This document shows positions 31,689 through 54,775 of a stretch of 64,000 nt of DNA, piece after piece. Under the pieces are notes generated by a model. It was given only the letters and a program-made list of their open reading frames with translations, was not told the origin of the DNA and did no database searches. This DNA comes from Octopus sinensis (Eukaryota). The first letter of the stretch is position 1, and each line of letters starts with the position of its first letter. The position numbers and the translations under genes were made by a program. The stretch lies in the NCBI RefSeq assembly GCF_006345805.1, contig NC_043003.1, forward strand, positions 110,422,001 to 110,486,000. Reading direction: 5' to 3'.

Positions 31689-32166
31689 TATATATTAGAA
31701 GAAATGAGGTAATCAGAAGATCGGATGGTTCATATTTACAGATATTTATTTATATATTACATTTTTTACATATATATATCATATCATTCAGATCATATCA
31801 TTCACATCATTAGCGCTTTCTCCCATTCTAGTGGGGTTTTCAAATCAAAATAATTCCTTTGCGGGGAATTTTAATCATTTTATAGAGTTTCATAGTGGTG
31901 GGGAGGAACAAGACAGCACAATACTTCACCCTCTTGTGCTGTCTTGTTCCTCCCCACCACTATGAAACTCTATAAAATGATTAAAATTCCCCGCAAAGGA
32001 ATTATTTTGATTTGAAAACCCCACTAGAATGGGAGAAAGCGCTAATGATGTGAATGATATGATCTGAATGATATGATATATATATGTAAAAAATGTAATA
32101 TATAAATAAATATCTGTAAATATGAACCATCCGATCTTCTGATTACCTCATTTCTTCTAATATATA
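31689..32166. mobile_element. perfect fold-back palindrome (233-bp arms, 12-nt loop), probable non-autonomous Penelope-like derivative
   Basis: 31689-31921 is the reverse complement of 31934-32166; loop TACTTCACCCTC; terminus TTAGAAGAAATGAGGTAA resembles that of the element at 44212; hammerhead-like motif in each arm. The palindrome is certain, the family assignment is inferred. Confidence 0.75.
32008..32048 (+). ncRNA. candidate variant minimal hammerhead ribozyme (U3-A8 core); mirror copy on the minus strand at 31807-31847
   Basis: UUGAAAA-c-CCCA-cuagaa-UGGG-a-GAAA-GCGC-UA; stem I is weak. Confidence 0.4.
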
Positions 32167-32232
32167 ATACCTGTACATCATCTCCAAACCTTCCATATAT
32201 ATATATATATATATATATATATATATATATGT

Positions 32233-33453
32233 AGGGATGGTATTTGAGGACATATGCTTTTTATTTAATAAAGCGATTCTAATCTTTCAAAACATATATT
32301 TAACTCGAGATTTCTGTGCATTTTCCCGATATGCTTTCTTATAATGTTACCCTAGCATTCCTATTTTATCTTCTGTGACTGCTTCAATGTGGCATTAGAA
32401 CATTTGGTATGTCTGCGCTAAGCGCTTCTTATTCATTTCGAACATCACCAGAAGAATGTCGGCCTTCGGTGAGGCTATGTTATTTTGACGATATCAACTA
32501 GTCTCATCTTCGATAAAACGCTCCAGATAGAGTTGTCAATGGAATCTGTAACTAGCGAGTTTGGAAGTATCGAATTTTGGTTACTGGATCGAAAATACTT
32601 TTTTTCTATCCATCATTGGTTTACAACGGCTTTTGACACGGCGTGAGTAATTTTAAAACAGACATGACCTTCCACTGAGTAGTTCATCTATCCAGGACTT
32701 AACTAATTTCTTCATCACCCCAGCATATGTAAGAGCATTAAGCGTAAGACCTTGTGGAAAGATGAATAGTGGAATGACATTACTTTCGTATCTCAATCCT
32801 GTTATTGGAACCTTAGTGTGTATCAGTCCGGGAGTATCAGACTGCTCTGCAAACAACCATCCGTTACTATTCCTGTTAGATAATTAGACTTGTTTGCAGC
32901 TTTTTACATTGGAGAGCAATCGAGGTATGCCATGCTTTTAGGTTTTTTTTTGTATCCTGTTATGTAAATATCTGGCACGGATTCAATGGTTATGCATTGT
33001 TTCACAGATATGTAGAGGCTACTCGCCAGGTGTATACGTTTTGTATCAATTGTCCGTGTGCACCAATGTTCTTATAGTACACTCCAGCACCTGGATTTCT
33101 TCTGTGATTGTCATCATTTGTTTTTTTTTTGTGGATCATCATTGATAATCTTATGAACATGTTAGATCAATGACGTTTGTTTTTTAGTATACGAACGTTT
33201 AGTATGTTATTTTTTGTCTTTGATACAGTTGAAAAATTATTTCTCCAAACTCGGCCTTTATCTTTTGCAACGTTTAGAAAGTTGGTAATTTCTAAATTGC
33301 CGGTTTCCAAATATATAGCAAAAATTACTACATGCGTTTGTTTTCCTGTATTCGTAATGCATCTGCCATAGGAGAATCTGATAGACATTAAGATTTATCA
33401 ACCGCTTTCAGGAAAGTAACATACTGATATTTAGGTGTCCTCAAATACCCGCG
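32233..33453 (-). mobile_element. maT/DD37D-like Tc1/mariner element, degenerate
   Basis: Inverted terminal motif GGTATTTGAGGACA at both ends; HTKVP..VIPLFIFPQGLTLNALTYAGVMKKLVKSWID resembles a maT transposase. Confidence 0.8.
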
Positions 33454-33704
33454 GCTTTCACACACATACACACTCACTCATACACACAAGCACACACACA
33501 TATGTTTTGGTGTATATATGTGAGTGAGTATATGCATACTGTGTTTCCATACTTGCAGTTAAGAAACAGTCAAACAGCATTTGACGGTAACATTCTTAGA
33601 CATACATATACACTAGGAATCTAATAAGGCACTGTACGTTATACATTACTAAAATTTGTCGTTCCTGATATTGTCTTTTTACATCGAAAGTATGTTTTAT
33701 ACAG

Positions 33705-33875
33705 ACGTAGGTATGATGGTGTGATAAAGAATTTCACTTTAAAACCGCGTGGTTTCCGTATCAGTTCCACTACTCGGCACCTTCGCTAATTATCGTCTAC
33801 TTCATTTTATTGCAGACCAATGCTTTGTTAGCGAAATTGGTAGATTTAAATAGTGTGGAAAATTGTCGTATATTA
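33705..33875 (+). mobile_element. SINE family B, degenerate 5' part
   Basis: Diverged match to the family B head and core. Confidence 0.45.
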
Positions 33876-50809: not shown

Positions 50810-52039
50810 GAGAAAAAATAATATGAACTTTAAAAGAACAAAGGCGTTGGATCTATGAGTTTCTTGTTTATCTGTCCCTATCTATGTGATGGGAGTCATG
50901 TCAATTATTAAACCACAACTAACAGATGAATGATTGGGGGGTGATATAAATACAGAGTTATCGATAACTCTCAATGTATGGATTAGTATAGATTTCCTAA
51001 TTAAATGTCCATATAGGCAGCATAGGGTGAGTTAGTTAGAGCAATGCCCAATGAGAAAACGTTAAAAATAATAAATACATTAGAACTGGATTTTCAGTCG
51101 TTTTAGGATAATATCTGCATTTAATAATAAGAAATTAGATCAACTTTATGAAAACACAATTACTAAACCTGAATCTAGAACATTCAATAATATTAATAAA
51201 TAACGTATAATCATACAATTAACAATATCAATAATAATAATATAATAATATCCAATTCAACAACACGTATATATGACAATTCTGCACCACCGACCAATAC
51301 AAGTTGAAATTGTAAAGACCTTAATGCTTGTAAATTAGAAAGAAATTGTAAAAAGAATTACGTTGTATTTCTTTTTACAATTATAACGCAGGACTCATCA
51401 ATATATATATGTATATTCATATATATATATATATCAGTTGCATTTAAAACTGGGTTATAAACACACACACACACACACACACACACCACACACACACACA
51501 CACATATATATATATATTATATATATATATATATATACATATATATATATATATACATATATATATATATATATATATATATATATATTATATATATATA
51601 TATATATACATATACTGAAATGTTTATAAAATTATTTTAGCATTTTCTATTTTGACTTATTTTTTCATATATATATATATATATATATAATATATATATA
51701 TATATTATATATATATATATACATATATCCTGTTGTGTCTGGGGAGAGTAATTTTCTTTTTGTGCCTTATAATGTAACACATTCACCGGTAAAGTTTCCA
51801 CTTATTATTTTAATTTTACTAAAATTTTCGTTGCGTCTTGCAAACTTTTCAATAGTCTTGAGTACATACGAACTCATATAATAGTCTTGACAACGCACGA
51901 ACTCATATAAAGAATCTTGCAAACCAAATTAAAAATCAATATATGTATATATATATAAATATTATTTTTTTTCTTGTTTATAAATATATATATATATATA
52001 TATATATATATATATATATATATATACATATACATATAT

Positions 52040-52169
52040 TACTCTTTACTCTTTTACTAGTTTCAGTCATTTGACTGCGGCAATGCTGGAGCACCACCTT
52101 CAGTCGATCAAATCGTCATCGGGACTTATTCTTTGTAAGCCCAGTACATATTCTATCGGTCTCTTTTGG
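52040..52169 (-). mobile_element. SINE family B 3' fragment
   Basis: TTTCAGTCATTTGACTGCGGCAATGCTGGAGCACC matches 8586-8615. Confidence 0.7.
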
Positions 52170-54001
52170 CATATATATATATATATATTATATATAATAT
52201 ATATATATATATATATATATATATATATATCTATATATATATATATAATATTCTCCCTTATTACCCAACATAGAAACTTCTATGACCATTGTATTACTAT
52301 AGCATATATTCCCTTTAATTACTTAATTTTAATATTTCCGAAATGATAACTGAAGGACCTTCTATATATAGGATCATTATTCTGATTGGAGATATTCTCT
52401 ATACCTATGTATTTGTATTTAATTATACATATATATTTCTACTTATGTTTATTCTCTTCTATACGTATGTATATGTACTCCCATTGTTATCTCCCAACAT
52501 ATCTACTTCACTAAATACTTGCATATGTTATTAGTCATTCTAACCTACAATTAAGTATATATTTAATGATGGTTTATATACACATGTATGTTATAGTCGG
52601 GCTGTGCGTGATCTGATATGTCTGCATATCTATGTATGCCTCTATGTCTATCTATGTGTGCATGTATGCGATTTTATGTATATATGTGTATATGTGTTAT
52701 ATATATATATATATATATATATATATATACATATATATATGTGTGTGTGTGTATATATATAAATATGTGTATATATCCGTGTATATATAAAAACATATAC
52801 GTTTTTATTTACATATTTATCGATGTATTTGCTCACGTATAAGCATGTGTGTCTAACGTATATGTATATATATGTGTGTACCAATATGCTTATATGTGTA
52901 TGTATGCATCTATATACCTATGTGATTGCATATACATATTCTACTCTATATATGATAAGCATATATCCTATACGTTTGTAAATGTATACGTACCGCTATG
53001 TGTATCTATCTACTCGTAGGTCATAACAATATTTATATTTTAATACATATACATGCACTGAATCTACATATCGTGTATATTTTTTCATTACGATCATATA
53101 TAGACATATCCTATCAATCTTACATAATACTTAGCAAGAATAATACTTTTGACAACTTATTATATATATATATATATATATACAAAACATTCCTTTTGTA
53201 TAACATTATCCTACATACACAATACCTTTATCATTAATACCTCATTCTTTTATTTTTCGCATTCAGTTGTCTCATTACATCCCATACTTGATCATTATTA
53301 TGTTTCTTCTTATTTATCTCTCCTACACTAGTATAATTTCGTTTTCTTTTCACTCCCTCTAATTTATTACATTATTGCTTCAAATTTTATCTTCTTACCA
53401 CATCCCCTAAAGTATTCTCTTATCTCTCTTATGAATAACAGACTTCGTAAGTATAATACAACTTTAATCGTCATATTTGCATTGGAATTACCACTTTTCC
53501 TCATTTTCTCCTTCATTTTACTTCCATGCTATCTTAAAAGCAACCTTGAGTGAACCAGATTCCTTTTTAAATATTCCTATATTTTCATAAATGACTATAT
53601 TAACTTTCTAGTATAAGCTTTACAAACATATTATTTTTACGCTAAACATTCTTCTTCTTTCATAAGAACAAACACCAAGTATTGCTTTCAACGGTTAGAT
53701 TTAACTTACATTAGGTTAGGCTTTCTCATTGGACATTTCTCCAACTAAATCACCCGATGCTGCATATATGGAGATTTAATTAGCAAATATATACTTACCT
53801 ACAGAGAGAGGGAGAGAGAGAGAGAGAGAGTTGTCGATATCTTTATATTTATATCATCCCCAAACTGTTCAACCGTTAGTTGTGGTTTAATAATTGATAT
53901 GACTCCCATCAATATCACTATCACTAGACAGGAACAGATAAAAATGAAACTCAGAGATCCAAATTCTCTACTCTATTTCTAAGTTCCTATTATCTTTTCT
54001 C

Positions 54002-54075
54002 TGAACTGATGAGTAATGGGATATTTGCAAGATTCTAAAATGAATGTATATCTATGTACGAAACGGTTGTATACA
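54002..54075 (+). ncRNA. hammerhead motif in the 3' pLTR (stem I mismatched)
   Basis: CUGAUGA (54006-54012), GUA..UAC, GAAA (54060-54063), CGGUUG, UA. Confidence 0.6.
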
Positions 54076-54775
54076 TTAATAAATTTCTTACAACTTTTTA
54101 AACATCTTATCTCGTTCATTTTTGACAAATATGATTGGATTTGAAGAATATTCCATAACTTAATAATATACTTAATATATATATATATAATATATATATA
54201 TATATATATATATATATATATATATATATATATATATATATATATATATATAGTAGAAATATGTTACGAAAAGAAAATATAAAATACACGTGAAAAAGTA
54301 TGGGTAAAATATGAAAAATCAACGAAAATGCATATTGCAAATAGAAGAAGGCTATCTATGACAGGTAGTGACAAATATACACATTTAGATTGACTGAGGT
54401 AGTAATATGAGTCATAAAGGTCATTATTAAGAGATGATTATAAGATGATAATAAAGTAAGAGAACAAAACGAACCAATGGTTTACGCGAATGCTATTCAT
54501 CATATATATATAAATATATAAATATATATATATATATATATATATATATTATATATATATATATATATATATATATATATATATATATATCTGTATATAT
54601 GTATGTATATATGGGTATGTATTTAAATTTAATTCGGGGATATGTCAGCCTAGTGAAGGGATGGTTTCACCAAAGGAAATACTGATTGAATACGTAGGAT
54701 TTTGGAGGAATGAAATTGCCTTAAAGCGATAGGTATATATTAAGCATATAACATATCCATTTAAAAGGAGAACGG

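What the first reader, a model, noticed from the sequence alone, without database searches (positions are those of the whole stretch)
31689..54177. Three fold-back elements, each with outward-facing hammerhead ribozyme motifs (Penelope-type pLTR hairpins)
Seen: three otherwise dissimilar inverted-repeat elements (31689-32166, 44212-45020, 50636-54177) share one design. Both arms carry a core/stem II/GAAA/short (near-)palindromic stem III/UA motif pointing outward, and they sit in TA-rich flanks. The first two share the terminus TTAGAA(A)GAA(A)TGAGGTAA. The third retains Cys-linker and YIG-like peptide remnants. Established: Penelope-like elements carry minimal type-I hammerheads in their pLTRs and often have inverted pLTRs, so the general association is known. 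Inference: these form a reduction series from a coding element, through a short spacer, to a pure hairpin, i.e. non-autonomous ribozyme-bearing palindromic retroelements.
Basis: partly seen in the sequence, partly recalled or inferred. Interest (0 to 1): 0.75.

Follow-up and report, generated by a model that had tools for sequence, protein, structure and literature searches.

The report
Three back-to-back Penelope retrotransposon insertions
These three fold-back stretches are separate, truncated insertions of three protein-coding Penelope-type jumping genes, each laid down as two back-to-back copies of the gene's 3' end, a known pattern that likely arises when both cut DNA strands prime copying of one RNA.

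Summary
The inverted repeats and outward-facing hammerhead motifs are real; the 'reduction series' is not. Each element is two 5'-truncated copies of the 3' end of a coding Penelope-like element (PLE), joined head to head. E1 belongs to a young Neptune-type family with full-length copies; E2 and E3 belong to two old Hydra-type families. E2 has no spacer. E3's interior is the truncated main copy. E1's junction occurs once in the genome. Only E3's left motif passes a strict hammerhead descriptor; E1 has the published U3-A8 core; E2's copies are decayed. This architecture is published (PMC8557442, PMC4209133). The E1 family does inform mechanism. Of 29 scorable inverted pairs, 29 carry the 35-nt tail on exactly one arm, the longer in 4 and the shorter in 6. 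Fifty-seven hairpins turn just ahead of the hammerhead, against 2 at a control site. This favours priming from both DNA strands on one RNA. The scan noted the same patterns earlier in other genomes. The Hydra-type tails are long (115-140 nt, against 30-40 published).

The parts
31695..31921 (-). E1 left arm: 227-nt 3' end (pLTR) of a Neptune-type PLE, tail-less, ending in (TA)n
31808..31846 (-). E1 left hammerhead motif (U3-A8 core variant), mirror of 32009-32047
31922..31922 (.). E1 junction: one base between the arms; the 30-mer across it occurs once in the genome
31923..32160 (+). E1 right arm: 238-nt 3' end of the same family
32009..32047 (+). E1 right hammerhead motif: core 32012-32018 (U3-A8), stem II with closing C/A mismatch, GAAA, palindromic GCGC, UA
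32161..32195 (+). 35-nt PLE tail; in full-length copies it is the start of the next unit, in frame with ORF1
44212..44659 (-). E2 left arm: about 450-nt 3' end of a Hydra-type PLE, no tail found
44276..44325 (-). E2 left hammerhead motif: intact core, 2-nt insertion before GAAA, stem I broken
44654..45020 (+). E2 right arm: about 365-nt 3' end of the same family; overlaps the left arm by about 6 nt, no tail found
44909..44956 (+). E2 right hammerhead motif, two core substitutions
50490..50635 (-). E3 family tail, about 125-140 nt, on the short arm; shared by 10 of 30 family loci
50636..51064 (-). E3 short inverted arm (Hydra-type PLE 3' end)
50740..50809 (-). E3 left hammerhead: full CUGAUGA core, stem I 4 bp, 43-nt stem II region, 6-nt stem III; the only strict descriptor hit in the window
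51067..51416 (+). 5'-truncated start of the E3 main copy: decayed end of RT thumb, Asn-rich stretch, CxCX5C linker (first Cys codon is a stop) and start of the endonuclease
51417..52244 (.). Microsatellites and an unrelated dispersed repeat (51940-52168) in place of the endonuclease C-terminal half
52245..54177 (+). E3 family 3' UTR and terminal arm, tail-less, ending in (TA)n
54002..54075 (+). E3 right hammerhead motif: core intact, one stem-I mismatch

Best explanation
Each of the three elements is an independent insertion made of two 5'-truncated copies of the 3' end of a protein-coding Penelope-like retrotransposon joined head to head (one Neptune-type, two Hydra-type families), likely formed when both nicked strands of a TA-repeat target prime reverse transcription on one RNA. 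SHOWN: family membership, links to RT/GIY-YIG ORFs, arm boundaries, tails, and the counts below. INFERRED mechanism: the element's endonuclease nicks both strands in (TA)n. Each 3' end primes cDNA at one of two fixed start sites on the RNA, one giving a tailed arm and one a tail-less arm. Each cDNA stops at its own point and the two 5'-truncated ends are joined. The hammerhead is a passenger of the copied 3' end and points outward only because the arms do. The frequent turning point just ahead of the hammerhead is likely the 5' end of a transcript begun in the upstream pLTR. Cleavage by these motifs is untested. Confidence: about 0.95 for identity, about 0.65 for two-strand priming.
For: E1: 26 of 30 loci found with the family endonuclease carry the E1 arm downstream on the same strand. 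L297, L299 and L300 have pLTR-tail-ORF1-RT-EN-pLTR. The 620-aa natural frame of L236 hits RVT_1 and GIY-YIG above cut-off. E2: 13 of 30 Hydra-type EN loci carry the arm within 1.5 kb; E3: 10 of 30 carry its 3' UTR. RT and EN motifs match the Hydra alignment in the PMC8557442 supplement by eye. Tail on exactly one arm in 29 of 29 scorable E1 pairs (p 4e-9 against 0.5). Among pairs differing by more than 50 nt, the tail is on the longer arm in 4 and the shorter in 6; window E3 also has it on the shorter arm. Arms of one hairpin average 97% identity against 88% between hairpins (10 loci). 57 hairpins turn within a 25-nt gap just 5' of the core, against 2 at a control site; the same turning points appear in contigs of 4 public runs. 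In vitro, a PLE protein cleaves and extends both strands and starts at two adjacent sites that bound the tail (PMC11167929).
Against: Window E2 has no tail on either flank, although its family has one. An arm's partner was its best match in only 14 of 20 cases. 17 of 30 and 20 of 30 Hydra EN loci lacked the E2 or E3 3' sequence within 1.5 kb (related families or long UTRs; not resolved). L068 joins an E3 arm to an inverted E1-type arm and both are tailed. No laid contig bridged E1's junction. Only one control window was used for the hotspot, and turning at the predicted cleavage site was not counted genome-wide. Clades were assigned by motifs, without a tree. Target-site duplications cannot be read in (TA)n.
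Confidence: 0.85

Rival explanations
1. Same identity, different mechanism: one cDNA folds back and copies itself (or an antisense RNA self-primes, as proposed in PMC3846280), making the second arm.
For: Arms can be identical (E1 227 of 227; several 99-100%). Junctions have 0-6 nt microhomology or small palindromes. PMC3846280 argues for self-priming from junction palindromes.
Against: A self-copied arm cannot be longer than its template or gain a tail. Yet the tail-less arm is the longer one in 6 of 10 clear cases, by up to about 2.4 kb, and copying would have to stop exactly at the tail boundary in 29 of 29.
Confidence: 0.15
2. One reading: the hairpins are non-autonomous ribozyme-bearing retroelements that copy as units, the end of a reduction series from a coding element.
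For: About 300-bp hairpins are common in the E1 family (57 loci), and some junction strings recur several times among the 50 listed. Non-autonomous PLE derivatives are described (PMC8557442 passages; bioRxiv 10.64898/2026.07.22.740005 abstract).
Against: Three families in two clades. E1's junction is unique. All 10 unselected pairs differ in span. Short hairpins are 88% alike between loci but 97% within. The window's hairpins do not turn at the hotspot.
Confidence: 0.06
3. E1's perfect symmetry is an assembly artefact or recent arm-to-arm gene conversion.
For: 100% identity over 227 nt while the nearest other copies are 97-98%. The junction was not bridged in the contigs laid.
Against: The flanks are not mirrored and only one arm has the tail, as in 28 other loci. 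One run holds right-arm sequence joined to this locus's right flank (record 18). Older pairs show diverged arms (90-96%).
Confidence: 0.05
4. MITEs or foldback DNA transposons with terminal inverted repeats.
For: Inverted ends in TA-rich targets.
Against: Most copies are single 3'-anchored arms with ragged 5' ends and lead into RT/GIY-YIG ORFs.
Confidence: 0.01

Closest known systems
EN+ PLE insertion with adjacent inverted 5'-truncated copy and one-sided 30-40 bp tail (PMC8557442 Fig. 2 legend and text; PMC3846280 Pen2a_Av; PMC2377424 Fig. 1C legend)
   Same: Head-to-head arms, variable 5' truncation, tail at one end only, (TA)n target, hammerhead near the 3' end.
   Different: Tails of the two Hydra-type families are about 115 and 125-140 nt. 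The papers say the tail is 'often' or 'optionally' one-sided; here it is 29 of 29 in the E1 family.
Minimal type-I hammerheads of metazoan PLEs (PMC4209133)
   Same: Short palindromic stem III, extra base at the 5' end of stem II, pairs on opposite strands 100-700 bp apart, U3-A8 core variant.
   Different: E1 closes stem II with C/A and E2 with A/A instead of G10.1-C11.1. E3 has a 43-47-nt stem II region. None is tested for cleavage.
Hydra clade, e.g. Hydra-1_Obim (PMC8557442 section 11 and supplement)
   Same: CxCX5C linker, no CCHH, CxxC..E..N..CxH, DKT, YRDD, hammerhead, (TA)n preference.
   Different: Different hammerhead sequence from Hydra-1_Obim (row seen), Asn-rich linker, 3' UTR up to about 2 kb, long tails; only decayed frames seen.
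Neptune clade (definition in PMC8557442)
   Same: DKGG, YLDD, CX4CxxC linker, CCHH-type C-terminal GIY-YIG, (TA)n targeting.
   Different: The E1 family has an upstream ORF1 overlapping the RT frame at a U UUU UUA heptamer. The paper's Fig. 1 legend allows a frameshifted ORF1 in PLEs; I could not see for which clade.
Metazoan non-LTR retrozymes (bioRxiv 10.64898/2026.07.22.740005)
   Same: Non-coding, type-I hammerhead, PLE-derived.
   Different: Retrozymes are tandem direct repeats; these are inverted, non-tandem, and contiguous with coding elements.

Membership tests
EN+ Penelope-like elements | RT plus C-terminal GIY-YIG endonuclease linked to the 3' end | tested here: met
   (family level; in the window only E3 keeps coding remnants)
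EN+ Penelope-like elements | Partial tandem forming pLTRs | tested here: met
   E1 family L297, L299, L300; not shown for the E2 or E3 family
EN+ Penelope-like elements | 3'-anchored, 5'-truncated copies, some with an inverted partner | tested here: met
EN+ Penelope-like elements | Optional tail at one end | tested here: met
   E1 35 nt; E3 125-140 nt; E2 about 115 nt in the family, absent in the window copy
Neptune (E1) | CX2-5CxxC linker, CCHH in EN, DKG motif | tested here: met
   natural frames of L134, L236, L297
Neptune (E1) | RT phylogeny separating Neptune from Nematis | not tested
   no tree built
Hydra (E2, E3) | CxCX5C linker, CCHH absent, CxxC and CxH around E and N | tested here: met
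   L171, L224, L228, L231, L235; definition
Hydra (E2, E3) | DKT motif | tested here: inconclusive
   seen in L235, a 67%-identical relative of E3's interior; not seen in an E2-linked frame
Hydra (E2, E3) | RWK motif; RT phylogeny | not tested
   N-termini not recovered; no tree
Type-I hammerhead ribozyme | Conserved core, three stems | tested here: inconclusive
   Core pattern in 29, 22 and 22 of 30 family copies; strict pass in 1 of 6 window arms; one compensatory pair in L068; no formal covariation test
Type-I hammerhead ribozyme | Self-cleavage | not testable with these tools
   needs an assay
Non-autonomous hairpin element | Same junction repeated at dispersed loci | tested here: not met
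   E1 junction 1 exact match; E2 and E3 junctions not seen among 30 loci each but not searched genome-wide
Non-LTR retrozyme | Tandem direct repeats with a hammerhead in each unit | tested here: not met
   inverted, two arms only
MITE | Both TIRs in most copies, no RT link | tested here: not met

The most novel reading that the evidence does not exclude
These insertions are a natural record of a two-strand priming mechanism common to Neptune- and Hydra-type PLEs. One RNA, starting just ahead of an uncleaved hammerhead, is copied from two fixed start sites onto both strands of the cut target, so every inverted insertion gets exactly one tail. In the two Hydra-type families the start sites would lie 115-140 nt apart, three to four times the published distance, so tail length is set by family RNA structure and not by endonuclease geometry.
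Probability: 0.5. Interest if true: 0.55.

Novelty: new member of a known kind. Interest (0 to 1): 0.3.

Why it matters
As found, this is ordinary PLE debris: two reviews of the structure and the hammerhead paper already describe it. It matters a little more as evidence. PMC8557442 names the formation of inverted structures and tails as unexplained, and the one-tail rule, its independence from arm length and the turning hotspot give sharp predictions for the existing in vitro system (PMC11167929). It also warns annotators that such hairpins are not MITEs or self-copying ribozyme elements.

Tried and rejected
Rfam scan: swamped by microsatellite matches to miRNA models; no hammerhead among the 150 rows shown. 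The repeat finder over the whole window: swamped by (TA)n. The first GIY-YIG Pfam search returned other Neptune-type families; only L103 held an E1 arm. My first by-eye reading of the thumb remnant at E3's junction used the wrong frame and was corrected from relatives. My guess that E2's arm carried endonuclease coding sequence was wrong; both E2 arms are 3' UTR. A first census script used a wrong offset and one crashed; counts come. Rows left out of the 29: L253, L257, L259, L262 (one arm cut by another insertion), L030 (arms face inward), L068 (two families), and duplicates L005/L012, L007/L013, L258, L267, L269. Four more pairs also had a tail-less partner but were selected on the tail, so were not counted. 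No RNA holder was listed. The contigs laid did not bridge E1's junction, which proves nothing. No tRNA gene in the window. Literature searches for a two-strand or twin-priming model of PLEs listed no such paper, but subscription journals are not covered. Figures and bioRxiv supplements were not visible and may already show long Hydra tails or a frameshifted Neptune ORF1.
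Full report
Observation. The window is AT-microsatellite-rich animal DNA from a 2.7-Gb genome; an octopus-like host is my inference. The three inverted repeats exist: E1 has 233-nt arms at 100%, E2 about 77% and E3 about 77%. Their arms do not align to each other. Each arm carries a hammerhead-like motif reading outward. 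A strict descriptor finds only E3's left motif, with 0 hits in 20 shuffles. Family alignments show the core pattern in 29 of 30 E1, 22 of 30 E2 and 22 of 30 E3 copies. E1's core is the U3-A8 variant reported in PMC4209133; it was TTGAAAA in 81 of 84 E1-type contexts, and other Neptune-type families here use U3-A8 too. Covariation support is thin: one compensatory stem-II pair in L068, and different stems with palindromic stem III in related families. Folding gave no stable hammerhead.

What the elements are. Each arm is an abundant repeat: 1859, 1633 and 383 first-look candidates. Copies are fixed at the outer end, ragged inward and mostly single. E1: 26 of 30 loci retrieved with the family endonuclease have the arm downstream on the same strand. 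Three loci show pLTR-tail-ORF1-RT-EN-pLTR, and a natural 620-aa frame scores RVT_1 and GIY-YIG. The motifs fit Neptune. E2 and E3 lead into endonucleases with a CxCX5C linker, no CCHH and CxxC..E..N..CxH, and into RT pieces with YRDD and (one E3 relative) DKT. This matches the Hydra definition and alignment. Linkage within 1.5 kb was 13 of 30 for E2 and 10 of 30 for E3.

Anatomy in the window. E1 is a 227-nt arm, one base, a 238-nt arm and a 35-nt tail. E2 is a 450-nt arm and a 365-nt arm overlapping by about 6 nt, with no spacer and no tail. E3 is a long tail, a 430-nt inverted arm, then a main copy truncated in the RT thumb, whose endonuclease is half replaced by microsatellites and another repeat, followed by about 1.9 kb of 3' UTR. 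The size differences are 5'-truncation points in unrelated families, not descent.

Do hairpins copy as units? E1's junction 30-mer occurs once. An exact terminus pattern has 634 matches. Among the first 100 listed there are 10 outward-facing pairs within 6 kb, all of different span, no inward-facing pair, and one same-strand pair that is a duplicated hairpin. There is a hotspot: 57 loci turn within a 25-nt gap just 5' of the hammerhead core, against 2 at a control site nearer the end. Junction letters vary, though some recur. In 10 such loci the arms are 97% alike within and 88% between hairpins. Contigs of four public runs show the same turning points. This fits repeated creation at a fixed template end better than propagation, without excluding a little propagation.

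Mechanism. All 29 scorable E1-family pairs have the tail on exactly one arm (exclusions are listed under Tried and rejected), while 8 of 30 arms overall are tailed. Where the arms differ by more than 50 nt, the tail is on the longer arm in 4 and the shorter in 6. Simple fold-back copying predicts the longer arm always. The tail is the first 35 nt of the next unit (5 of 25 loci continue into shared sequence). PMC11167929 shows a PLE protein cutting and extending both strands, with two start sites bounding the tail, and shows that hammerhead cleavage is not needed in vitro. I infer one start site per strand on one RNA. Against this: window E2 has no tail, L068 has two, and no experiment was run.

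Comparison. The inverted 5'-truncated copy, one-sided tail, (TA)n bias and pLTR hammerheads are in PMC8557442. Opposite-strand minimal hammerheads 100-700 bp apart are in PMC4209133. Junction palindromes and a self-priming proposal are in PMC3846280. I did not find the two-strand model or long Hydra tails in print (searches; open-access text only). Earlier scan notes report the one-tail rule, the stop ahead of the hammerhead and the Neptune frameshift in other genomes. I had reached the identity reading; the tail and hotspot tests are my own counts, partly prompted by those notes.

What I read. PMC4209133 and PMC11167929: parts 1-2 of 4 of the text. bioRxiv 10.64898/2026.07.22.740005: part 1 of 5. 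PMC8557442: passages, sections 11, 15 and 20, and supplement rows; no figures. PMC3846280, PMC2377424 and PMC13282606: passages. The L1 term 'twin priming' and hammerhead numbering beyond PMC4209133 are recalled.

Verdict. Real elements of a known kind; the proposed series is not supported; modest value as mechanistic evidence. Interest 0.3.

Noticed in passing
L297, L298, L299, L121-L124: Neptune-type families have an ORF1 of about 480-530 aa overlapping the RT frame at U UUU UUA (6 of 8 copies; L124 has U UUU UUU; L300 lacks one U), with no strong hairpin downstream. Likely a -1 frameshift; noted earlier by the scan elsewhere.
   Followed up: partly
window 50490-50635; L041, L045, L051: Hydra-type tails of about 125-140 nt (E3, 10 of 30 loci) and about 115 nt (E2, 3 of 30 loci), against 30-40 bp in print.
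   Followed up: partly
L068:1380-2105: A tailed E3-family arm joined head to head to a tailed E1-type arm that begins at the hammerhead's 5' edge: two events, or a cross-family chimera.
   Followed up: partly
window 54734-55074: A fourth, decayed fold-back (66% arms) with GAAAC and CGATGA-like pieces in non-standard order; may be the scrambled-hammerhead type of earlier notes.
   Followed up: no
window 44212-44230 and 31695-31713: The Neptune-type E1 and Hydra-type E2 families end in similar 19-mers (14 of 19 identical), which is unexpected between clades.
   Followed up: partly
window 3086-3344, 15630-16231, 23414-24305, 39469-39680, 42779-42989, 61165-61405: A 240-nt dispersed repeat with at least 12 copies in the window, SINE-like, including tandem and inverted pairs.
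   Followed up: no
window 28411-31366: Direct duplication of about 1.5 kb at 98% identity just left of E1.
   Followed up: no
window 31923-32243, run X3: One run's contig joins the start of E1's right arm almost directly to the right flank, suggesting an allele that lacks most of that arm (record 18).
   Followed up: no
window 34337-34606: Decayed C-terminal piece of a LINE-type RT on the minus strand (E 1.5e-6).
   Followed up: no
L228-L231, L239: E2-type Hydra ORFs carry a long Asn/Thr-rich insert between RT thumb and linker, like the Asn-rich inserts described in PMC3846280.
   Followed up: no
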